A stretch of DNA of 26,818 nucleotides from Candidatus Methylomirabilales bacterium (GCA_046758505.1 JBHIAH010000031.1:1-26818), one strand, 5' to 3'; counted from the first letter of the stretch, positions 8,950 to 26,818 are shown. Notes: generated by a model from the sequence alone, not told the origin. Numbers and translations are program-made.

Positions 8950-9112
8950 GCCCTTCGACTCGCTCCCTTTCCTTGGCAGGATTGGGGCGCTTCGGCGGCT
9001 CGCTCAGGGCACCATTCGACGCGCGAGAAGCGGCTCTCCAGCCGCAGATGGCTTGCCATGAGCAACCGGGGAAAGCTCTCGTCGGAAAGCTTTCCCCGCG
9101 CGTCGAATGGTG
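8950..9112. repeat. REP-like composite inverted element abutting the tmRNA 3' end
   Basis: Two oppositely oriented units of the form CNTTCGAC-YCGC...GCTCA(G/T)GGC. Perfect 16-bp inverted repeat CACCATTCGACGCGCG (9010-9025 / 9097-9112). Internal hairpin CGGGGAAAGCT/AGCTTTCCCCG (9067-9098). Confidence 0.7.
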
Positions 9113-9460
9113 GAGGCGGCGGGAGTCGAACCCGCGTCCGAGAACAGGTCCATAGAGGCCCCTACATGCTTAGCCTGTGTTTTGCTTCTCGTCGGTGAAC
9201 ACCCCCACAGGCAGGGTTACTCACCAACCAGCCCTGCAGTTCTCGCCCGCCTCTCCCGGGCCGGGATCGGAAGGCCAGCTTACCTGTATGACACCGCACC
9301 TTACCCGGCAAGCGGGGCAAGGGCAGCGTGGCTACTCGTTAGGCAGCCAGTGCCAGCTGATGGTTGGCAGTTGTGTGTTTCCCATCGGTTTTACGAGGGT
9401 GATGGGACCTCGGCATGCCGCCTCTACCAACCTCGTCCCCGTCGAAACCGTTTCGCCCCC
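9108..9460 (-). ncRNA. ssrA: tmRNA; tag reading frame 9368-9339 encodes ANHQLALAA*
   Basis: 5' GGGGGCGAAACGGTTTCGACGGG and 3' GACGCGGGTTCGACTCCCGCCGCCTCCACCA. The acceptor stem has the G3.U Ala determinant, the tag ends LALAA-stop, and the gene lies next to smpB. Confidence 0.97.
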
Positions 9461-9479
9461 CTGCGGCCCGCAGGCCGCC

Positions 9480-9578
9480 GTTCATGGTTAATGGTTCATG
9501 GTTCATAGTTCAGAAAAAAGAATGAATACTGCCGAAACGCGTTTATAACCCTGAACTCTGAACCCTCAACCCTGAACC
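9480..9578. repeat. Inverted heptamer arrays, (GTTCANN)5 ... (CTGAACC-like)5
   Basis: gttcatg gttaatg gttcatg gttcata gttcaga (9480-9514) and tataacc ctgaact ctgaacc ctcaacc ctgaacc (9544-9578). Confidence 0.85.
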
Positions 9579-10024
9579 CTTTTGAGTGCATCAGCCATCT
9601 CCCGTTCCTGGGTCCGGCGCTTGAGGTCTTCCCGTTTATCGTACTGCTTCTTTCCCCGGCACAGGGCCAGCTCCACTTTGACCCGGCCCTCCTTCAAGTA
9701 GAAACTCAGCGGAACGAGGGTCAGCCCCCGTTCTTGAACCTTCCCGACCAGGCGGCGGATCTCCGCCCGGTGCAGCAGGAGCTTCCGGCGTCGCCGGGGC
9801 TCGTGGTTGAACCGGTTGGCTTGCGTGTACGGGCTGATGTGGCAGTTGAGAAGAAACACCTCCCCCCCCTCCACCACCCCATAGCCATCCCGCAGATTCG
9901 CCCCGCCCGCCCGGAGCGACTTGACCTCGGTCCCCCTCAGGGCGATGCCGGCCTCAAAGGCCTCCTCGATGTGGAAGTCGTGATACGCCTTTCGATTGGT
10001 CGTAAGCACCTTCCCGTGCGCCAT
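9566..10024 (-). CDS. smpB: SsrA-binding protein SmpB
   Basis: NRKAYHDFHIEEAFEAGIALRGTEVKSLR, NHEPRRRRKLLLH and GKKQYDKRE. Confidence 0.99.
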   Translation of the reverse strand: MAHGKVLTTNRKAYHDFHIEEAFEAGIALRGTEVKSLRAGGANLRDGYGVVEGGEVFLLNCHISPYTQANRFNHEPRRRRKLLLHRAEIRRLVGKVQERGLTLVPLSFYLKEGRVKVELALCRGKKQYDKREDLKRRTQEREMADALKRVQG

Positions 10025-10060
10025 ATTCTCTTACCCCTGCGTTATTCCCTCGCAGCATCT

Positions 10061-10089
10061 AGAATAGCCCTTTCCCCCTTTTTTTTCAA
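10061..10089 (-). promoter_or_regulatory. Sigma70-type promoter for smpB-ssrA
   Basis: TTGAAA-17 bp-TATTCT on the minus strand, about 36 nt upstream of the smpB ATG. Confidence 0.65.
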
Positions 10090-10148
10090 GTCAACACCCC
10101 CGGCGCCAGCCTCCCCAACCCGAGAAAAGAGAAAAGGGGATAAGTACA

Positions 10149-10835
10149 TTATTCGGGTCCCCCCTTCTTGGCGGGACGACCCCGTGGACGGAAGGTAAAT
10201 TCTAAGCTCAGACGTTTCGCGACTCGTTGTCGCCAGGCCTCGCTGCCGTAGGGCCGGCCTCGCCTGACCGATAGCCTCAACGCTTCGAGCTCCTTCGATG
10301 TTAGCCCCTCGTTCAAGAGCGAGAGCCAGTCGTCCGGGCGAGGCACTGGCCACGCCGACAGCGCCGGCTTATGCTCATCTGCGCCCCCTCGGAGCCGCAC
10401 CCAGACGCTCGACCACTGCCACTGCTCGGCCCTCTCGACCAAGCCTGCCCGCACGCCGTTCTGTTCCACGTAGCGGCAGACCGTTAGAAAGTGCTCGTCA
10501 TGGTGAACCGGAAACGACTTGTACGTGCCCTGATAGAGGTGTCCGCTTCCTACGCTGTCCCGGTTCAGATGCCAACGGCGTGCATGCGTGGTGGTCAGTC
10601 GATGCATGAACTTTCCCAGGTCTCCGTCCCGCTCGGGCCACACAACCAAATGCCAGTGGTTTGGCATGATGCAATATGCCAAAAGACGCATGGGGACACG
10701 CAACACCGCCTCGGCCAAGAGCCATTCAAACCTCTGATAATCACGGGCGTCTTCGAAGATCCTAATGCGCGCAGTGGCACGGTTAAGCACATGAAAGACT
10801 ACGCCACCCGGAGCGATGCGGGCCGTTCGAGGCAT
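10149..10835 (-). CDS. HUH Y1 transposase (IS200/IS605 superfamily, RAYT-like)
   Basis: MPRTAR..FHVLNR, AYCIMPNHWHL (HUH), GHLYQGTYKS, RYVEQNGVRAGLV (catalytic Tyr), WQWSS and C-terminal RPRGRP. Confidence 0.95.
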   Translation of the reverse strand: MPRTARIAPGGVVFHVLNRATARIRIFEDARDYQRFEWLLAEAVLRVPMRLLAYCIMPNHWHLVVWPERDGDLGKFMHRLTTTHARRWHLNRDSVGSGHLYQGTYKSFPVHHDEHFLTVCRYVEQNGVRAGLVERAEQWQWSSVWVRLRGGADEHKPALSAWPVPRPDDWLSLLNEGLTSKELEALRLSVRRGRPYGSEAWRQRVAKRLSLEFTFRPRGRPAKKGGPE

Positions 10836-10841
10836 ACACCG

Positions 10842-10870
10842 ACGCTATCGGAGGACCCTGCTTGCGTCAA
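10842..10870 (-). promoter_or_regulatory. Transposase promoter, probably giving a leaderless mRNA
   Basis: TTGACG-17 bp-TAGCGT, then 6 nt to the ATG at 10835. No SD. Confidence 0.65.
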
Positions 10871-10910
10871 CAGATAATTGTACTTATCCCCTTTTTATCC
10901 CCTTTTTCTC

Positions 10911-11090
10911 GCAGAGGCAGGGGCCCGTATAGCCAAAGGTGCTGAAGGGAAAACAGAACCCGACGCGCCGGACGAACCGGAGGGCGCCCTGTTCACTCCG
11001 CACCCTGAGGTGCGGCAGGCGGTGCAGCGACCGATCCCTCAGGGTCTCTACCGCCGCTCGCGTGATCCGGTCAGCGGAACCGCAGGGCAT
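10911..11090 (-). pseudogene. 5' remnant of a gene cut off by the transposase element
   Basis: ATG 11090 overlaps the DGQHR 3' end. It reads MPCGSADRITRAAVETLRDRSLHRLPHLRVRSEQGALRFVRRVGFCFPFSTFGYTGPCL and then runs into the element's repeat. Confidence 0.55.
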
Positions 11091-12204
11091 CCCGGAGCTC
11101 GCGGACGAGCGTCTCCACGGTCCCCCGCGTCCCCCCGGCCAGCTTCTGCCGCCACAGGCCCTCGGTCTCGAAGCGGGCGTCTCCGATCCGCTCCCTCCAG
11201 GGAGAGACCGCCTGGCGGATGGCGGCGGCGTCAAAGGGGTCTTTCTTGCTGTCCCGGGCGGCCGCCATGACATCCGGAGAGACCCGGATAAAGGCCCTGA
11301 GCGCCGTCCCGGTTTTGATGCTGTACTTCCGCCCCGCCCAGGCCTGGGGAAAGGCGGCCGCAATCGCCTTGAAATAGTTCAGGAAGAAGCGGCGCGCCCC
11401 CTCACGCAGCTCTCGGGCCCGCGCCTCCCCGCCAATCTTCTGGACCGTCTCGAAGAGCTCCACCATCTCCTCGGCCAAGGGAGCCTGGGAGACCTTCCCC
11501 CGTCCCACGCCGAGGATCCGGATCTCTCCCCGCAGGGGGGACGACTCGGCCTCGTTGAGGGCCCGGATGATGTCGTGGGCCAGTGCCTGGTTCTCGTTCG
11601 CGTAGAGCCGTCGCCCCGCCAGGCTGATCAGGTGGGACGGATTGAGGCGGGTGTGCTTGGCATTGATGGTGACGAAGAGTTCCACAACCTGCCGATCATC
11701 CAGGTGGTCAAAGAGGACGGCCGGGACCTCCATCCCGCTGAATTCCTGGGCCGCCGCGTGCAGGGCCAACAGGCGATGCTGGCCATCCAGGGCCCGCAGG
11801 ATGCCGGGCTCTTCCGGGATCTCGAGGAGCCCGAGGGTCGGGTTTGCCCCGCCCCGCGTAAACCGGAGCCGCCGCTCCGCAATGATGATCACCGCCCCCG
11901 GGATGGCGGGAAGGTTTCCCGCCTCCTGGCACTCCCGGTAGTATTGCAGCAGCTCCTCGATCTTCCGGTGGATCACGGGTCGCTGAAACGCCGCCTCGCC
12001 CCGGGCAATCCGCCGCTCCAAGAGCTCCCAGTTCACGCGCGTCGGCCGGCGGCGGCGCTTCCCCGGGGGCCCCTCGGCCGAGGCGTACCCCAAGACCTCG
12101 AACCGGACCAGCCGGTCGATATCAGCCGCCGAGAAGGAGGCTTGATAGAACTCGACGCCGAACTGCCTGACCCGATGGGCAGGCACCGTGATCATGGACA
12201 CCAT
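11071..12204 (-). CDS. DGQHR-domain protein (DndB/ParB-Srx-like fold)
   Basis: FQRPV...KIEEL..YY, IPGAVII, LRALDGQHRL and ELFVTINAK. Confidence 0.9.
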   Translation of the reverse strand: MVSMITVPAHRVRQFGVEFYQASFSAADIDRLVRFEVLGYASAEGPPGKRRRRPTRVNWELLERRIARGEAAFQRPVIHRKIEELLQYYRECQEAGNLPAIPGAVIIIAERRLRFTRGGANPTLGLLEIPEEPGILRALDGQHRLLALHAAAQEFSGMEVPAVLFDHLDDRQVVELFVTINAKHTRLNPSHLISLAGRRLYANENQALAHDIIRALNEAESSPLRGEIRILGVGRGKVSQAPLAEEMVELFETVQKIGGEARARELREGARRFFLNYFKAIAAAFPQAWAGRKYSIKTGTALRAFIRVSPDVMAAARDSKKDPFDAAAIRQAVSPWRERIGDARFETEGLWRQKLAGGTRGTVETLVRELRDALRFR

Positions 12205-21971: not shown

Positions 21972-22409
21972 ATGTGGCCTGCGTTCCTGGTGACCGCCCT
22001 CCTCCTTCTCTTTGCCTACGGCATGGCCCGTGGGACGGCCTGGCTCGATCGTTGCTCGGATGACGAGTTTCGGCTCCTGATCTGGGAGGCCGAACCCCAG
22101 CGGGCGGCCGACGCCGTGAGCCGGTGGGTAGCCCAGGTGCTCGTCATCCGGCTCTGGGCGGCCGAGCCCGGCCACGTGTGGCTGCGGATCGAGGGCTGGA
22201 TTCTCTTCCCCTGGACCCGAGGGCTCGAGCGAGTCTGCCAGGAGCACCTTGCTCACCCCGACACGCGGCTCATCCTGGATCTCAGCCGGGTCAGGTGGAT
22301 CAGCCCTGCTGGGCGGCGGTTGCTGCAGGGCCTCGACGGGACCCGGGTGCAGATACAGCGCTGGCCTCGACACCTGCGACCTCTCGGCCCGGCGCCAGGC
22401 AGGGGATAA
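21972..22409 (+). CDS. Membrane-anchored STAS-like domain protein
   Basis: N-terminal hydrophobic helix. LRIEGWI...LERVC...RLILDLSRVRWISPAGRRLL matches the STAS lDls.v.fids.G pattern. SD GGAG. Confidence 0.65.
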   Translation: MWPAFLVTALLLLFAYGMARGTAWLDRCSDDEFRLLIWEAEPQRAADAVSRWVAQVLVIRLWAAEPGHVWLRIEGWILFPWTRGLERVCQEHLAHPDTRLILDLSRVRWISPAGRRLLQGLDGTRVQIQRWPRHLRPLGPAPGRG

Positions 22410-22473: not shown

Positions 22474-23613
22474 ATGACGAGGATTACACCGGGCCACGGG
22501 AGCGACGCATCGGTACCGGACCTGCTCCAGCCGGTCCTTGAGGATTATGCCCAAGCCGTGCGGACCCCCATCCATGCCCATGCACCGGCAAGTCGCCTCT
22601 CTCCTCCGCGGCGGGATGGCGGTCTCCATCTGCACGTCTTTGCCCTCCCGGCCCAACCCCACTGGTCCACCTTCTGGCCAGTGACTCCAAGCGTCGAAAT
22701 CCCTGCGGTTTTTTGCTGGGGACTGGCTGCAGGAACGAAGAAGGCCTTGGACCCAGGGAACCTCTTCTCCCACGGCGCCTTAACATTCGATCAGAGGGGT
22801 CGCGCAATTACCGGGACCCTTGGAGAGAATATCTATGTCCTGTTCGACCTCTTGGGACAGCCCGAGCCGTTGGTTCCGGTCATCCTGCGGAGGATTCTCG
22901 ACCTGTGTCTGGGGGGGTTGTCGGAATCCCTGTCCCTGCAGAGCGGCAGGCTCCCCCATCAGGTGCACCTCACCCTTGACCGCCTCAAGCACACGACGAT
23001 GCTCATCACCCTGAACGAGCGCGCCGCCCGGGGAGAGCACCCGGGAATTCAGGATCACGTCTCCGACAACGCCGGGCCAGCCGAGGACGGGGAGTGTATC
23101 CGGAAGCGGATGACGGTGGCAGAAGAAAACCTCAGAGAACTCTCCCGGCAGATGGCGTCGCAGACACGCCTGTTGATGCACTGTCGGGAGCGGTACCGGA
23201 CGCTCACCAAGGCCGACGAATCGGAGGAAGCGCTGACGCGGGAATTCGACAGGCTACTCGCCATCCCGGAAGTGCGCGACGTCCAAGTCCTGGGGGACCG
23301 CCTGTGCGTGCTCACGGAAACCGTCGATACGGTGGTTGCCGGCCGGCGCTACCGGTTGGGACGCTTTCGCCTCGATATTCGCTTCAATGGCGATGTGGCC
23401 ATCACGAACCTTACCCGGGCATACGGCTACTATGATCACCCCCACATCTGGAACACCAAGCCGTGCCTCGGCAATATCGGTCAGAGTGTCGTGAAACTGG
23501 TCAGTGAGTTTCAGTGGGTCGCCGCAGCCGAACTGCTCCTCGAGTATCTGAAGACCGTGAGCCCCAAAGAGTGGTATACCCCCATCGACCACTGGGAGGA
23601 GCGCTCTCCGTGA
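22474..23613 (+). CDS. Coiled-coil protein with a C-terminal E2/UBC-like domain
   Basis: Heptad-rich middle region (RKRMTVAEENLRELSRQM...LTREFDRLL). Then beta strands YRLGRFRLDIRF, DHPHIWNTKPCLGN (compare UBC HPNI..G.ICL) and a closing helix LLLEYL. Confidence 0.7.
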   Translation: MTRITPGHGSDASVPDLLQPVLEDYAQAVRTPIHAHAPASRLSPPRRDGGLHLHVFALPAQPHWSTFWPVTPSVEIPAVFCWGLAAGTKKALDPGNLFSHGALTFDQRGRAITGTLGENIYVLFDLLGQPEPLVPVILRRILDLCLGGLSESLSLQSGRLPHQVHLTLDRLKHTTMLITLNERAARGEHPGIQDHVSDNAGPAEDGECIRKRMTVAEENLRELSRQMASQTRLLMHCRERYRTLTKADESEEALTREFDRLLAIPEVRDVQVLGDRLCVLTETVDTVVAGRRYRLGRFRLDIRFNGDVAITNLTRAYGYYDHPHIWNTKPCLGNIGQSVVKLVSEFQWVAAAELLLEYLKTVSPKEWYTPIDHWEERSP

Positions 23614-24251
23614 GCTGGACCGTCAACACCATTCCCGAGGTCCTGATCACACCGGCAGCCTTCCAGAAGCTGCGCCTGTACATCGACCTGTGCCCCATGG
23701 AGATCGGAGGACTTGGCGAAGTAGAGCGCCACGGTGCACATCTCTTGATCACCGACCTCTTCATTCTCCCCCAAAAGATTTCCCCGTCGGAAACGGAGCT
23801 GGACCCAGGAGCGATGCTCGAGATGCTCCAATGCTGCGTTGCCGAGGAGCGGAACCCCGCATCGCTCTGCCTCTGGTGGCACAGCCACGCCGAGATGGAC
23901 GTGGAGTGGAGCGAAACGGATGAGCGGACCATCGCGACCTTCCCCGGGGACTTCCTCCTCTCCGTTGTCGCCAACAAATCGGGCGCGTTGGCGTGTCGCC
24001 TCGACTTCCTGCACCCCACCCCACGGGTTTTCAGCGACCTTCCGCTCACCATCCTCCCCGGCCAGGGCGGCGAGGCGGACGTGACGGCGCTCCGGACCGC
24101 CATCATTGCCGAGATGTGCGAGAAGCTCCAGGTGGTCACCCGCGACCTCCAGTACCATGAGATCCCGGTCGAGGTGGAATTTTTGTCCTCCTTCGACCCC
24201 GAGCTCTGCCCACCAGCGTCTCCCCCCTGGTCGACGACCGATGACCGATGA
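23610..24251 (+). CDS. JAB/JAMM (MPN+) metallopeptidase
   Basis: MEIGG ... WWHSHAEMDVEWSETD is the exact E-xn-H-S-H-x7-S-x2-D motif. GTGA overlap with the upstream stop; SD GGAGGAG. Confidence 0.9.
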   Translation: MSWTVNTIPEVLITPAAFQKLRLYIDLCPMEIGGLGEVERHGAHLLITDLFILPQKISPSETELDPGAMLEMLQCCVAEERNPASLCLWWHSHAEMDVEWSETDERTIATFPGDFLLSVVANKSGALACRLDFLHPTPRVFSDLPLTILPGQGGEADVTALRTAIIAEMCEKLQVVTRDLQYHEIPVEVEFLSSFDPELCPPASPPWSTTDDR

Positions 24252-24378
24252 CCCGGGGAATTTCCAATTTCGAATTTCGAAATTCGAATTTCTGTCAACT
24301 CTGAACCCGACGGGGGTTGACTTCGGTTATCGGACCTCGAACGTTGGACTTTGGACCTTAAACCGTGACCCGTGAACA
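24233..24378. repeat. Composite heptamer arrays: (GATGACC)3, (AATTTCG)~5, (NNTGGAC/CGTGAAC)6
   Basis: gacgacc gatgacc gatgacc; aatttcc aatttcg aatttcg aaattcg aatttct; ctcgaac gttggac tttggac cttaaac cgtgacc cgtgaac. Confidence 0.8.
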
Positions 24379-24395
24379 CCGTGGAGGTGCCGACA

Positions 24396-25127
24396 ATGCA
24401 ATTCGTTCGAGTGACCGATCTCCAAACGGCGGATAACCACACCGTCCCCGCCTACGCGTTTCTTCCCGAATCCCCGCGCGGCGGCGCGGCGGTCGTTCAC
24501 GGGTACGGGGGGTGCAAGGAACAGATGCTCGGTCTCTCGGCCCGCCTCGGCGAGGAGGGATGGGCAACGACCGCCGTCGACCTCCGGGGCCACGGGGAGC
24601 ACCCCGCCCCCCTCGATGCGGGACTGCTGCAGGATCTGGAGGCCGCCCTGAGCTGGCTCCGCCGCTACGGGCGGGTGGTCGCCGTGGGACATAGCCTGGG
24701 CGGGCGGTTGGCGCTCACCTCCAGCGCCGATCTCGTCATCGCCATCTCTCCCGCCGTCGCGAGCCGGCCCTCGGAGGAGGGGCGGCAGATGCTTCTTGCA
24801 TTCGGCGCGACCACCGTGCGAAGCCCGGAGCCGGGCTTCATCCTGGAGCTCCTGCGGAATATGGAAGAGGTGAAGGAACCCACCCGGCCCGCCCTGCTCC
24901 TTCACGGGGCGCAGGATATCCCCACCCTTATCGAGGGCATCCAGCGGGTAGCGGGCAACCTTCCCAAAGGAACGCTGGCGCCAGTGACCACCTTCCAGCA
25001 TCCCGAGACCCCTCTCCCGCCCGCCATCCTCCCGTACCTTCACCGCTGGTTCAACCACCTCGACCTGAAGTTCAACCCCGAGGTCTTCCGGCGTGCCGCC
25101 GCATGGCTCCGCGAGGCGAAGACCTGA
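24396..25127 (+). CDS. Alpha/beta-fold hydrolase
   Basis: VVHGYGG, DLRGHG, GHSLG (nucleophile elbow), HGAQD and a C-terminal His candidate in FNHLD. SD GGAGGT before ATG 24396. Confidence 0.92.
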   Translation: MQFVRVTDLQTADNHTVPAYAFLPESPRGGAAVVHGYGGCKEQMLGLSARLGEEGWATTAVDLRGHGEHPAPLDAGLLQDLEAALSWLRRYGRVVAVGHSLGGRLALTSSADLVIAISPAVASRPSEEGRQMLLAFGATTVRSPEPGFILELLRNMEEVKEPTRPALLLHGAQDIPTLIEGIQRVAGNLPKGTLAPVTTFQHPETPLPPAILPYLHRWFNHLDLKFNPEVFRRAAAWLREAKT

Positions 25128-25156
25128 GCGTTGAGGGCACAGGATTGCGTGAGAAC

Positions 25157-25300
25157 AGTCGAGGGCGAATAGTTGAGAGTCGAGAGTGCAGAGATTTCGG
25201 GTTTCGCATTGCGAATTTCGAATTTGAAAAGTCTTAAGCCTCGTAGTTAAATTCGAAATCCCTCGGTCGCCGGTCTGGGGTCCCCTGTCTCCAGTCTGCC
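25157..25300. repeat. Composite heptamer arrays: (AGTCGAG)5, (AATTTCG-like)5, (NGGTCNN)5
   Basis: agtcgag ggcgaat agttgag agtcgag agtgcag; gatttcg ggtttcg cattgcg aatttcg aatttga; cggtcgc cggtctg gggtccc ctgtctc cagtctg. Confidence 0.75.
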
Positions 25301-25312
25301 TCAGCGGTCGCC

Positions 25313-25341
25313 TTGACACACGGATGGAAGCCCCCTAAGCT
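25313..25341 (+). promoter_or_regulatory. Sigma70-type promoter for the E2-D-like gene
   Basis: TTGACA-17 bp-TAAGCT, 30 nt before GTG 25372. Confidence 0.7.
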
Positions 25342-25371
25342 AGACTCAACCCATAGAGGGGAGAGAGCATC

Positions 25372-26163
25372 GTGGAGTGGATCGAGGTCCGGGGGAAGAC
25401 GGTCTCCCTGTACCGGGAGGGGACCCCGCCCACCGTTGATCGTGAGGTTCCGCTCGAGGATTTCCTCCGGGAGGTGGCCGCGTCGGCCCGCCGACCCGGG
25501 CGAGGGCGCCACGTCCTCCTCCCCCCCGGCACCCGAATCGTCAAGCCCGACGGGGGAGGTAACGCCCTCTGCATCGAGCAACCCCCACAACTCCGACGGC
25601 TCCGGTGGAGCGCCGCCGCCATGGGCAAGGGGGGAGAGTATCAGAGCTACCGGCTCGCGGTCCCCTATACCGTCTACATCTTCCTCTTCCACCAGGGAAG
25701 CTTCGAGGAGATGCGCGTCTACTACCGGACCGCCCCGCTCGAGAGCTCAGAGGACGTCCTGCTGATGCCGAATCTCTGGAACGTCCAGGCCGATCCTGGA
25801 AAGCGCTCTGCCTGTCGCGCCTGTCTCAGGGGCCGCCCGCTCGATCTGTGGGGGAACCCTGTCGCTAATCAGGTCACCGTCCTCCTCGACTACTTCTGGA
25901 GTACCGGCTTTAACACCGACATCGCGGGAAACTGCTTCGAGCGGGCCCGGGGCCTGGACCCCCGCATCAGCTCTCTCGAGGCGTGGGAAAAAGCCTCCGA
26001 GGCCGACCCCCTCTTTCCGCTGGCGCTCGACTGGGAGCGGCTCGAGCCGACCGTCGGTGAAATCATGGATCACCTACTCGAGACCGGTCCCCAGCCGCGG
26101 CAGGCCATCGCTGAAACCTCCGACCTGGCCGACCTCATCTACCGCATCCCCGAGCGGAAATAG
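25372..26163 (+). CDS. Prokaryotic E2 family D-like protein (PRTRC protein B-like)
   Basis: LLPPGT..., EQPPQLRRLRW, YRLAVPYTVYIF, VYYRTAPL....L.MPNLWNV...ACRACL and YFWSTGFNTD follow the order of Prok-E2_D motifs as I recall them. Confidence 0.7.
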   Translation: MEWIEVRGKTVSLYREGTPPTVDREVPLEDFLREVAASARRPGRGRHVLLPPGTRIVKPDGGGNALCIEQPPQLRRLRWSAAAMGKGGEYQSYRLAVPYTVYIFLFHQGSFEEMRVYYRTAPLESSEDVLLMPNLWNVQADPGKRSACRACLRGRPLDLWGNPVANQVTVLLDYFWSTGFNTDIAGNCFERARGLDPRISSLEAWEKASEADPLFPLALDWERLEPTVGEIMDHLLETGPQPRQAIAETSDLADLIYRIPERK

Positions 26164-26175
26164 AGAGGGGGAAGC

Positions 26176-26553
26176 ATGGCGGCATGGCGGTTCGACCTCC
26201 ACCGGGCGGAGCACCCCCTGTATCTGAGCTACGAGGGGTCTGTTCTCGCCCCGGGAGAGACAGAGCCGATCCATTGCTTCCTCTTGCTGGGAAAGGATTC
26301 CCTCACCGTCGAACTGAAGTCCCTCAGCCGCATCATCCCCGAGGAGATCATGCGGGCCTGGATAAGCCACCTGGGACCCCCTGCCTATGGTCCCATCACC
26401 CATTCCCGGACGGGGGAGATCGAGGAGCCCTTTGGCGAGATGATCCTAACCGCCACGTGGCGCTTCCCACCGGAGGAGCAGGGACGCCTCAGAACCAGGG
26501 TCGAGGGGCTCATGGAAAAAAGACTTGATCACGAACCACCTTCTCGATTATAA
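26176..26553 (+). CDS. Hypothetical protein (125 aa)
   Basis: Starts 12 nt after the upstream stop, with a purine-rich SD and GC3-biased codons. No recognised domain. Confidence 0.7.
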   Translation: MAAWRFDLHRAEHPLYLSYEGSVLAPGETEPIHCFLLLGKDSLTVELKSLSRIIPEEIMRAWISHLGPPAYGPITHSRTGEIEEPFGEMILTATWRFPPEEQGRLRTRVEGLMEKRLDHEPPSRL

Positions 26554-26663
26554 AACAGAGTTTGAGGGCGGTTCTTCTCGAGAGAGGAGGCTGGGAGCCG
26601 CGACAGGGAAGTGTGGGCGCGCTTTCACGCCACCGCGGAATAGTCACAAGGGAGGAAGGAGAC

Positions 26664-26818
26664 ATGATCCCAAGCCAGGAACGGAAGCGCATGGAGGAAC
26701 GATTTGGGGAAATCGGCGAGGGCCTCACGGAACTCACCATTCAGGGAAAGCGGTACAATCTGTATGCGCTGCTCAGGGGGATCGGCATGGACCATGCCGA
26801 CATCCGCCCCATTGACGC
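26664..26818 (+). CDS. Hypothetical protein, 5' part; truncated by the right window edge
   Basis: Strong SD GGAGGAAGGAG. MIPSQERKRMEERFGEIGEGLTELTIQGKRYNLYALLRGIGMDHADIRPID is open to the edge. Not in the ORF track. Confidence 0.75.
   Translation, partial: MIPSQERKRMEERFGEIGEGLTELTIQGKRYNLYALLRGIGMDHADIRPID

What the first reader, a model, noticed from the sequence alone, without database searches (positions are those of the whole stretch)
22474..26553. Putative bacterial ubiquitin-type conjugation locus: coiled-coil E2-like + JAB + second E2-D-like gene, with no E1 or Ubl in view
Seen: the 379-aa protein ends in HPHIWNTKPCLGN (His 23437, Cys 23464), is coupled by a GTGA overlap to a protein with a complete JAMM motif, and is followed 1.1 kb later by a protein with PNLWNV...CRACL...FWSTGFN. 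Known: E1, E2, JAB and Ubl genes form operons in bacterial conjugation systems (CBASS Cap2/Cap3, Bil/ISG15-like antiphage systems, PRTRC-type loci). Inferred: two different E2-fold proteins plus a deconjugase mark a protein-conjugation system. Its layout matches none of those I know, since no CD-NTase, ThiF/E1 or beta-grasp gene is adjacent. It could be a new or dispersed system, or a decaying one.
Basis: partly seen in the sequence, partly recalled or inferred. Interest (0 to 1): 0.8.

Follow-up and report, generated by a model that had tools for sequence, protein, structure and literature searches.

The report
Split bacterial ubiquitin-like tagging network
This stretch holds two different ubiquitin-conjugating (E2-like) enzymes and a tag-removing protease whose activating enzymes and tags lie elsewhere in the same genome, so it is probably the accessory part of two untested bacterial protein-tagging pathways, one of them built on a large, uncatalogued enzyme family.

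Summary
The motifs and coordinates are real. The 379-aa protein has a C-terminal UBC-like domain whose HPH...C motif is invariant in 51 of 51 aligned relatives. The JAB keeps a full JAMM motif. The 263-aa protein is a weakly supported E2-D-like protein with an invariant Cys. E1 and Ubl are missing from the locus, not from the genome. Contig C34 carries a paralogous coiled-coil E2, an E1 and a Ubl ending in GG. Contig C9 carries AAA, E2-D, JAB, E1 and Ubl. The window thus joins spare parts of two pathways of a Methylomirabilales (NC10) genome. The retained genes are under purifying selection (dN/dS 0.16-0.31). Five dispersed components are all present or all absent in 25 of 30 near-complete genomes of the order. 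The coiled-coil E2 family has no Pfam match, about 2,400 clusters, and sits beside JAB and E1 in 26 of 29 IMG/VR contigs. Best reading: E1-charged, JAB-reversed protein tagging working in trans, with several E2s per E1; no biochemistry or expression is shown. This scan found the same layout before on other DNA (e1-5251686) and noted this genome's partner loci. Verdict: new variant of a known kind.

The parts
22474..23613 (+). Coiled-coil E2 ('ccE2_A', 379 aa): uncharacterised N-terminal alpha/beta domain (about 15-150), long helices (161-248) and a C-terminal UBC-like domain (248-377) with HPH (23437) and the predicted catalytic Cys331 (23464)
   Evidence: AlphaFold2 model, pLDDT 81. Foldseek ranks 1-33 are all E2 entries, best E 3.5e-3. 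VIA Z 7.1, rmsd 4.2, 117 aligned to UBE2S, tied with an RWD domain at Z 7.3. HPH..C aligns with HPN..C of UBE2L3 at E about 0.2. No Pfam, NCBIfam, PHROG or PADLOC family.
23610..24251 (+). JAB/JAMM metallopeptidase ('JAB_A', 213 aa), coupled to ccE2_A by a GTGA overlap; predicted Ubl-maturing and deconjugating enzyme
   Evidence: Prok-JAB E 0.005, below the cut-off. E, H, H, S and D are present in 50 of 50 homologues taken from the fetched loci by profile (25 cellular, 25 viral). It is the only copy of this JAB type in the genome.
24372..25127 (+). Alpha/beta-hydrolase (251 aa, GHSLGG). A conserved neighbour; probably not a required part
   Evidence: Pfam Abhydrolase_6, E 1.4e-13. Lies next to the E2-D-like gene in three families, but is also found in G123, which lacks all five core components.
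25224..25253 (+). Weak sigma-70-like consensus match upstream of the E2-D-like gene (lead only)
   Evidence: 9 of 12 matches; 2 sites found against 0.6 +/- 0.8 in shuffles
25372..26163 (+). E2-D-like protein ('E2D_A', 263 aa) with invariant Cys151 (25822); paralog (45%) of the E2 in the AAA-E2-JAB-E1-Ubl operon on contig C9
   Evidence: Model pLDDT 83. VIA best Z 4.8 (rmsd 4.7, 126 aligned); 29 of the top 30 rows are E2, UEV or RWD entries by title. ESM Atlas nearest clusters carry PF14460 on 11-22% of members. hhalign to confirmed Prok-E2_D proteins is colinear over 149 columns but not significant (Prob 0.3, E 0.23).
26176..26553 (+). 125-aa hypothetical protein, not a Ubl; stands where 4 relatives have a GEKG-type Ubl and a second E2-D-like gene
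   Evidence: No Pfam match. 28% identical to a downstream conserved hypothetical family. The same layout is seen in L020 and L164.

Best explanation
The window is the accessory ('second E2') locus of two ubiquitin-like protein-conjugation pathways that Methylomirabilales keep as dispersed chromosomal genes. Pathway 1: the C34 ThiF-type E1 adenylates the GG end of the C34 Ubl and takes it on its conserved Cys. It passes it by transthiolation to Cys331 of the window's coiled-coil E2 or to the C34 paralog, which transfer it to lysines of target proteins. The His that replaces the Asn of eukaryotic HPN supports catalysis. With no E3 in view, the variable N-terminal domain and coiled coil choose the targets. 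The window's JAB is the only peptidase of this type: it removes the tag and, in families whose Ubl has residues after GG, matures it. Pathway 2: the window's E2-D-like protein is a second E2 for the C9 operon, charged by the C9 E1 with the GEKG-type Ubl; the C9 AAA ATPase probably unfolds or remodels tagged proteins. Shown: genes, folds, conserved residues, selection and co-occurrence. Inferred: all chemistry, which E1 charges which E2, the targets and the biological role. For the role I favour a cellular stress or proteostasis tag slightly over a dedicated anti-phage weapon.
For: Partners exist in the genome: ccE2-E1-Ubl(GG) on C34 and AAA-E2D-JAB-E1-Ubl on C9. The ancestral unit is seen intact. 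Of 37 genome loci, 4 have ccE2-JAB-E1, 14 have ccE2-E1 without JAB, 17 have ccE2-JAB without E1 in the fetched DNA, and 2 end at the gene; L071 is a further intact one. 26 of 29 viral contigs with the E2 domain have JAB and E1 within 5 kb. The same-genus genomes carry ccE2 (13 of 13), the C34-type E1 (11 of 13), the C9-type E1 (12 of 13), E2-D (12 of 13) and JAB_A (9 of 13). Of 30 genomes at least 90% complete, 13 have all five components and 12 have none; the shuffle mean is 2.0, but kin are not independent. The Ubl of JAB-less operons carries residues after GG in other families, so it needs a JAB in trans. The E1 Cys is invariant in 49 of 49 rows. dN/dS against congeners is 0.21-0.31 for ccE2_A, 0.16-0.23 for JAB and 0.16-0.22 for E2D_A. 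GC of the locus is 0.633 against 0.628 for the genome. In 4 relatives the gene after E2D_A is a Ubl; one tested is 57% identical to the C9 Ubl.
Against: No structure match passes a strict threshold: Foldseek E > 1e-3 for both proteins; VIA Z 7.1 and 4.8 lie in the range the tool calls common. Prok-E2_D does not hit the genome or any of 55 aligned members, and the profile comparison is not significant. The downstream His that defines class 6d E2s is replaced by Asn. The window's lineage lacks the Ubl and second E2-D that 4 of 6 close loci carry, and L024 keeps only a 47-residue remnant of the second E2-D, so the locus has been losing genes. Pairwise dN/dS at dS 0.6-1.1 would miss recent relaxation. 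The two trees disagree on whether the JAB-linked copies form one clade (support 92; not grouped). 5 of the 30 near-complete genomes are partial. ThiF, ThiS-like and JAB genes also serve sulfur transfer (PMC1779556, Table 1 passages).
Confidence: 0.65

Rival explanations
1. The pathways are anti-phage conjugation systems in the manner of Bil, or counter-measures against phages that carry the same cassette. The extra E2s widen the range of phage proteins tagged, or the JAB strips phage-made tags. The chemistry is the same as in the best explanation; the purpose differs.
For: Characterised relatives (Bil, CBASS Cap2) are anti-phage (PMC11601596 Introduction). The same cassette is common in IMG/VR contigs, often with several E2 paralogs. 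Presence is patchy within two genera.
Against: No PADLOC model hits the window proteins. The loci keep conserved positions among ordinary genes across families and have host-like GC. ccE2 is retained in 13 of 13 congeners, unlike the sporadic spread described for class 6 operons.
Confidence: 0.3
2. The beta-grasp proteins are sulfur or acyl carriers for a small-molecule or tRNA modification. The E2-like proteins and the hydrolase act on the carrier, and no protein tagging occurs.
For: The E1s are minimal single-domain ThiF proteins and the C34 Ubl hits Pfam ThiS. JAB, ThiF and ThiS-like genes form sulfur-transfer operons. An alpha/beta-hydrolase is a conserved neighbour.
Against: No rhodanese domain is fused to either E1, and no biosynthetic gene was recognised among the operon genes scanned. 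UBC-like folds with an invariant Cys at the E2 position are present. The viral cassettes show the same core.
Confidence: 0.12
3. The window locus is a decaying leftover of duplicated operons; only the C34 and C9 operons work.
For: The Ubl and second E2-D are lost in this lineage, with a remnant in L024. JAB_A was not found in 4 of 13 congeners, which are 79-96% complete.
Against: The frames and catalytic motifs are intact, and dN/dS is 0.16-0.31. JAB_A has no second copy in the genome. The ccE2 paralogs are 36% identical, and the C34-type copies of different families group together to the exclusion of the window-type copy, so the duplication is old.
Confidence: 0.07
4. The three genes form one self-contained, E1-independent system, the most literal reading of the first report.
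For: The three genes are co-oriented and syntenic in 6 of 7 close loci.
Against: The trio is confined to this genus in the loci seen. Elsewhere ccE2-JAB lies without E2-D, E2-D lies without ccE2, and JAB stands alone. The genomes that carry them also carry the E1s.
Confidence: 0.03

Closest known systems
Bil systems, Type I and II (BilA Ubl, BilB E2, BilC JAB, BilD E1); bioRxiv 10.1101/2023.09.26.559546 (passages read), PMC11601596
   Same: Four stand-alone components, a Cys-bearing E2 and E1, a JAB that exposes the terminal Gly, and no E3, so the E2 is thought to pick targets.
   Different: Here the E1 is a single 220-240-aa ThiF domain, not IAD-AAD-CYS. The E2 has an N-terminal domain, a coiled coil and an HPH motif. 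The order is E2-JAB-E1-Ubl, the genes are split over contigs with two E2s per E1, and no PADLOC Bil model hits the window proteins.
Class 6d operons of Iyer, Burroughs and Aravind 2006 (PMC1779556, section 14 and Table 1 passages); the PRTRC cassette of NCBIfam (equating the two is from recall)
   Same: Stand-alone Ubl, JAB, E1 and E2. The C9 JAB and E1 have PRTRC models as best NCBIfam hits. The window's 263-aa protein aligns colinearly with Prok-E2_D, Cys on Cys.
   Different: Scores are far below the cut-offs (32.8 vs 101.8 bits; 54.2 vs 144.75 bits). The downstream His is absent. An AAA ATPase leads the C9 operon. The E2 is duplicated at a second locus, and the loci look vertically inherited rather than mobile.
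Eukaryotic UBC-fold E2s (UBE2L3/UbcH7, UBE2S)
   Same: A four-strand meander with flanking helices, and HPx..C spacing.
   Different: HPH or APH in place of HPN; fused to a coiled coil; weak scores only.
Type II CBASS Cap2/Cap3 and Bub (6E) systems (PMC11601596 abstract, Introduction, section 5)
   Same: Bacterial E1, E2 and JAB chemistry.
   Different: No E1-E2 fusion and no CD-NTase among the genes scanned. Cys is conserved in both E1 and E2, unlike the Tyr/Ser oxyester chemistry of Bub.

Membership tests
UBC/E2 superfamily (379-aa protein) | UBC fold | tested here: met
   Foldseek ranks 1-33 are all E2 entries (best E 3.5e-3, prob 1.0); VIA Z 7.1, rmsd 4.2, 117 aligned, tied with an RWD domain. 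Each score alone is modest.
UBC/E2 superfamily (379-aa protein) | Conserved Cys at the E2 catalytic position | tested here: met
   C331 is invariant in 51 of 51 rows and aligns with the UBE2L3 Cys. Of 144 distant hits, 117 match HPH..C and 20 have APH..C.
UBC/E2 superfamily (both proteins) | Forms a Ubl thioester and transfers it to lysine | not testable with these tools
   Needs biochemistry.
Prok-E2_D / class 6d E2 (263-aa protein) | Match to PF14460 or significant profile similarity | tested here: inconclusive
   No HMM hit. hhalign Prob 0.3, E 0.23, though colinear over 149 columns. Atlas neighbours carry PF14460 on 11-22% of members.
Prok-E2_D / class 6d E2 (263-aa protein) | Conserved His downstream of the Cys (PMC1779556) | tested here: not met
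   Asn181 is invariant at the aligned position.
PRTRC / class 6d operon | Components reach the NCBIfam PRTRC cut-offs | tested here: not met
   The window proteins have no PRTRC hit; the C9 JAB scores 32.8 vs 101.8 bits and the C9 E1 54.2 vs 144.75 bits.
JAB/JAMM peptidases | Glu plus HxH, Ser and Asp zinc motif | tested here: met
   E31, H91, H93, S101, D104; 50 of 50 profile-selected homologues keep them. The Pfam score is below the cut-off.
Bil (Type I/II) | E1 with tandem IAD-AAD and an inserted CYS domain | tested here: not met
   Both partner E1s are single ThiF domains of about 220-240 aa.
Bil (Type I/II) | Anti-phage activity by Ubl conjugation | not testable with these tools
   Needs phage challenge.
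Type II CBASS | CD-NTase and an E1-E2 fusion in the operon | tested here: not met
   None among the 29 window ORFs or the 12 ORFs of the partner loci scanned.
Bub (6E) | E1 and E2 lack a catalytic Cys; DUF6527 present | tested here: not met
   Cys is invariant in E1 and in both E2 families; no DUF6527 hit.

The most novel reading that the evidence does not exclude
Methylomirabilales have domesticated two virus-associated ubiquitin-like pathways into one chromosomal, vertically inherited network with eukaryote-like logic: one E1 per tag, several E2s with built-in coiled-coil target adaptors, peptidases acting in trans, and an AAA unfoldase as reader. The all-or-none retention of both pathways means they are functionally coupled, for example sequential or mixed tagging of the same substrates.
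Probability: 0.25. Interest if true: 0.85.

Novelty: new variant of a known kind. Interest (0 to 1): 0.62.

Why it matters
The bacterial conjugation systems described in the papers I read are compact operons with one E2, tied to phage defence. If the reading holds, this is a dispersed, stably inherited bacterial system with more than one E2 per E1, which is the step that gave eukaryotic ubiquitination its target range. It also supplies small, testable enzymes (a 220-aa E1, a 77-aa Ubl, a 130-aa E2 domain) for an E2 family of thousands of sequence clusters. That family has no entry in the domain libraries searched and is frequent in viral contigs, so the same assays would address what virus-borne ubiquitin-like cassettes do.

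Tried and rejected
Complex prediction of the C34 E1 (two copies) with the window E2 domain returned 'no answer' (score 0.02 against a mark of 0.32); it is not used either way. No RNA holder was listed for the locus, so expression is untested. Viral scans with alignment A2 and plasmid tblastn with the 263-aa protein found nothing. INPHARED phages gave no match to two ccE2 queries. Terminase_6N, Phage_portal and Gp23 were not found in 5 large IMG/VR records, and the Gp23 control rang nowhere, so their viral nature rests on the IMG/VR label. Alignment A3 was too divergent for a pattern scan. The careful tree did not finish and the clade test did not return, so both trees are quick searches. ccE2 against E2-D-like profiles showed no similarity; ccE2 against Prok-E2_D gave Prob 10, E 0.003, over the Cys region only. 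The N-terminal domain of ccE2 was barely tested by the fold searches. The 125-aa gene was rejected as a Ubl. The hydrolase and the downstream 453-aa family were rejected as required parts because they occur in genomes lacking all five components. A third ThiF gene on C95 sits in a different context. Only one proteasome-family hit was found in the genome, probably HslV (inference), so a 20S proteasome endpoint is not supported. Ten literature searches listed no paper on this family or on NC10 ubiquitin-like genes. The 2011 survey of prokaryotic ubiquitin systems by Burroughs et al. (recalled) was not held under the DOI tried, and no supplements were seen; either could list the family.


Full report
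Observation. The 379-aa protein has HPH at 23437 and Cys331 at 23464. A GTGA overlap couples it to a 213-aa protein with E31, H91, H93, S101 and D104. The 263-aa protein begins 1,121 nt later. The gap holds an alpha/beta-hydrolase gene. The last gene (125 aa) is a homologue of a neighbouring hypothetical family, not a Ubl. Close homologues are labelled Methylomirabilales or NC10, so the genome is inferred to belong there. The window is contig C31 of a genome estimated 96.8% complete. It overlaps contig C99 by 55 exact bases, and C99 gave no hit to the E1 or Ubl queries.

The coiled-coil E2. An AlphaFold2 model from 51 rows (pLDDT 81, pTM 0.55) shows an N-terminal alpha/beta domain, long helices at 161-187 and 202-248, and a four-strand meander with flanking helices. 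Foldseek ranks 1-33 are all E2 entries, though none reaches E 1e-3. VIA-align gives Z 7.1 (rmsd 4.2, 117 aligned) to UBE2S, tied with the Knl1 RWD domain at 7.3, in a range the tool calls common. A family profile aligns HPH..C on the HPN..C of UBE2L3 at E about 0.2. H322, P323, H324, C331, G333 and N334 are invariant in the 51 rows chosen from 114 hits. The profile finds 4,036 clusters at E up to 1e-3 and 2,441 at 1e-10 among 1.84 billion representatives; some weak hits may be coiled-coil noise. Of the 144 new proteins listed, 117 match HPH..C, 20 have APH..C and 7 neither, so the His opposite the eukaryotic Asn is the more constant one. No E2 family was hit in Pfam for 49 of them or for 81 domain rows. 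One named member is from a Parcubacteria bin. The E2 domain is the most conserved region: 76% mean identity in 14 close rows, against 61% for the N-domain and 53% for the helices.

The second E2-like protein. Its model (pLDDT 83) gives VIA Z 4.8 at best, but 29 of the top 30 rows are E2, UEV or RWD entries by title. Foldseek is weak (best E 0.12). Cys151 is invariant in 55 rows. The nearest ESM Atlas clusters (score 0.96-0.97) carry Prok-E2_D on 11-22% of members. Against this, PF14460 hits neither the genome nor the 55 members. A profile comparison with 13 Prok-E2_D proteins, 5 of them confirmed by Pfam, is colinear over 149 columns with Cys on Cys but not significant. The class 6d His is replaced by Asn. 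'E2-D-like' is therefore an inference.

Where E1 and Ubl are. A ThiF search of the genome and ORF listings show two partner loci. C34: a ccE2 paralog (36%), an E1 and a 77-aa ThiS-like Ubl ending in GG, with no JAB. C9: a CDC48-like AAA ATPase, an E2-D paralog (45%), a different JAB, a different E1, and a Ubl with GEKG and a 15-residue tail. The two JABs show no BLAST similarity to each other and the two E1s only 28% over 109 residues, so these are two pathways.

Comparative layout. Of 37 ccE2 loci from GTDB genomes, 4 have JAB and E1 behind the E2, 14 have E1 without JAB, 17 have JAB without E1 in the fetched DNA (three of them short), and 2 end at the gene. The window's trio occurs in 6 of 7 close loci with enough DNA. 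Four of the 6 add a GEKG-type Ubl and another E2-D-like gene, one keeps a remnant of that gene, and one matches the window. Many loci are the same DNA as loci and are not counted twice. In other families the pieces separate: ccE2-JAB alone, hydrolase-E2D alone, or JAB on its own contig. ccE2 was found in 13 of 13 congeners and 40 of 201 genomes of the phylum (4 of the 40 only at E about 1e-4), E2-D in 12 of 13 and 29 of 201. For 54 genomes of the order covered by all five searches I tabulated ccE2, JAB_A, both E1s and E2-D by hand; 12 of the 66 genomes were left out because searches did not list them. Among the 30 at least 90% complete, 13 have all five, 12 none and 5 some; shuffles give 2.0 all-or-none cases on average. 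Kin are not independent, but both states occur within two separate genera. The C34-type Ubl ends at GG in this genus and carries extra residues in other families whose operon lacks a JAB, which argues for JAB action in trans.

Selection and history. Nei-Gojobori dN/dS against 6-7 congeners is 0.21-0.31 (ccE2_A), 0.16-0.23 (JAB), 0.16-0.22 (E2D_A) and 0.13-0.19 (hydrolase). The JAMM residues are kept in 50 of 50 profile-selected homologues, and the E1 Cys in 49 of 49; selection by profile favours intact copies. GC matches the genome. In a quick tree the 42 Methylomirabilota ccE2s form one clade (SH-aLRT 100) among long viral branches. In a longer alignment the C34-type copies of this genus group with those of other families (93-94) and apart from the window-type clade (100), so the duplication is old. 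The two trees disagree on whether all JAB-linked copies share one origin. The direction of transfer between viruses and cells was not tested.

Viral relatives. A 178-kb IMG/VR contig carries AAA, ccE2, ccE2, JAB, E1 and Ubl in a row. A codon-restricted pattern scan gave 72 loci on 69 contigs. Twenty-nine have the E2 domain; 26 of these have both JAB and E1 within 5 kb, and 11 a recognised Ubl. Two pairs give identical hits and are not independent. Several loci hold 2-5 E2-domain genes with very different N-terminal lengths. Three hallmark families were not found on five records, so their viral status rests on IMG/VR.

Mechanism. By analogy with Bil (10.1101/2023.09.26.559546, passages), each E1 adenylates its Ubl and passes it through Cys thioesters to an E2, which modifies lysines without an E3; the JAB matures and removes the tag. 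Gene order in intact operons assigns ccE2_A and JAB_A to the C34 pair, and E2D_A to the C9 pair with its AAA ATPase. All of this is inferred. Confidence is 0.65 for conjugation in trans. Whether the purpose is cellular or anti-phage is nearly even, so those two readings overlap.

Comparison and novelty. It works like Bil and class 6d operons but fails their membership tests (E1 architecture, 6d His, PRTRC cut-offs). It is not CBASS or Bub. Papers seen: PMC1779556 (section 14 in full, Table 1 and other passages), PMC11601596 (abstract, Introduction, section 5), 10.1101/2023.09.26.559546 (passages), PMC11354881 (passages); all others as search listings only. Ten searches listed no paper on this family. 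No supplements were seen, and the recalled 2011 survey was not held. Earlier notes of this scan describe the same layout in another genome and the partner loci in this one; my reading was recorded before I saw them and they are not independent evidence. Verdict: a real, functional-looking new variant of bacterial ubiquitin-like conjugation; interest 0.62.

Noticed in passing
window 9108-12204: A tmRNA gene (9108-9460, minus strand) and smpB lie beside an IS200-like transposase (10149-10835) and a DndB-like gene (11071-12204); possibly a small inserted patch.
   Followed up: no
window 21972-22409: A 145-aa gene just upstream of ccE2_A, conserved in 5 close loci with dN/dS 0.15-0.26 in the 4 tested. 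Its C-terminal half reads like a STAS (anti-anti-sigma) motif by eye (recalled; no Pfam hit).
   Followed up: partly
window 26645-26818 and G000:C99:1-1761: A conserved run of hypothetical genes (about 110 aa and 453 aa, no Pfam) follows the E2-D-like gene in three families; the 453-aa family is in 39 of 66 genomes of the order, sometimes in two copies.
   Followed up: partly
L004:408-3434 (G000:C95): A 414-aa protein with a C-terminal ThiF domain and a similar-looking N-terminal half lies between a GNAT-like gene and a MoxR-like AAA gene (labels by eye): a third, different E1-like locus.
   Followed up: no
L051:5232-10724: The viral cassette is preceded by an AAA ATPase with a weak proteasomal OB-domain hit, and its Ubl ends in GN rather than GG.
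   Followed up: partly
L050:771-11529: An Anaerolineales locus has the ccE2-JAB-E1 core flanked by two AAA genes and several further small genes that may include more E2-, JAB- and Ubl-like parts.
   Followed up: no
L014:6504-6830, L017:7239-7565, L018:13623-13913, L021:13610-13894: GEKG-type Ubls end at the Gly in one locus and carry unrelated tails of 3 to about 16 residues in the others, as expected of a disposable pro-peptide.
   Followed up: partly
window 24260-24360 and 25140-25300: Intergenic stretches with repeated short AT-rich words, also seen between other genes of this genome and its relatives; not analysed.
   Followed up: no
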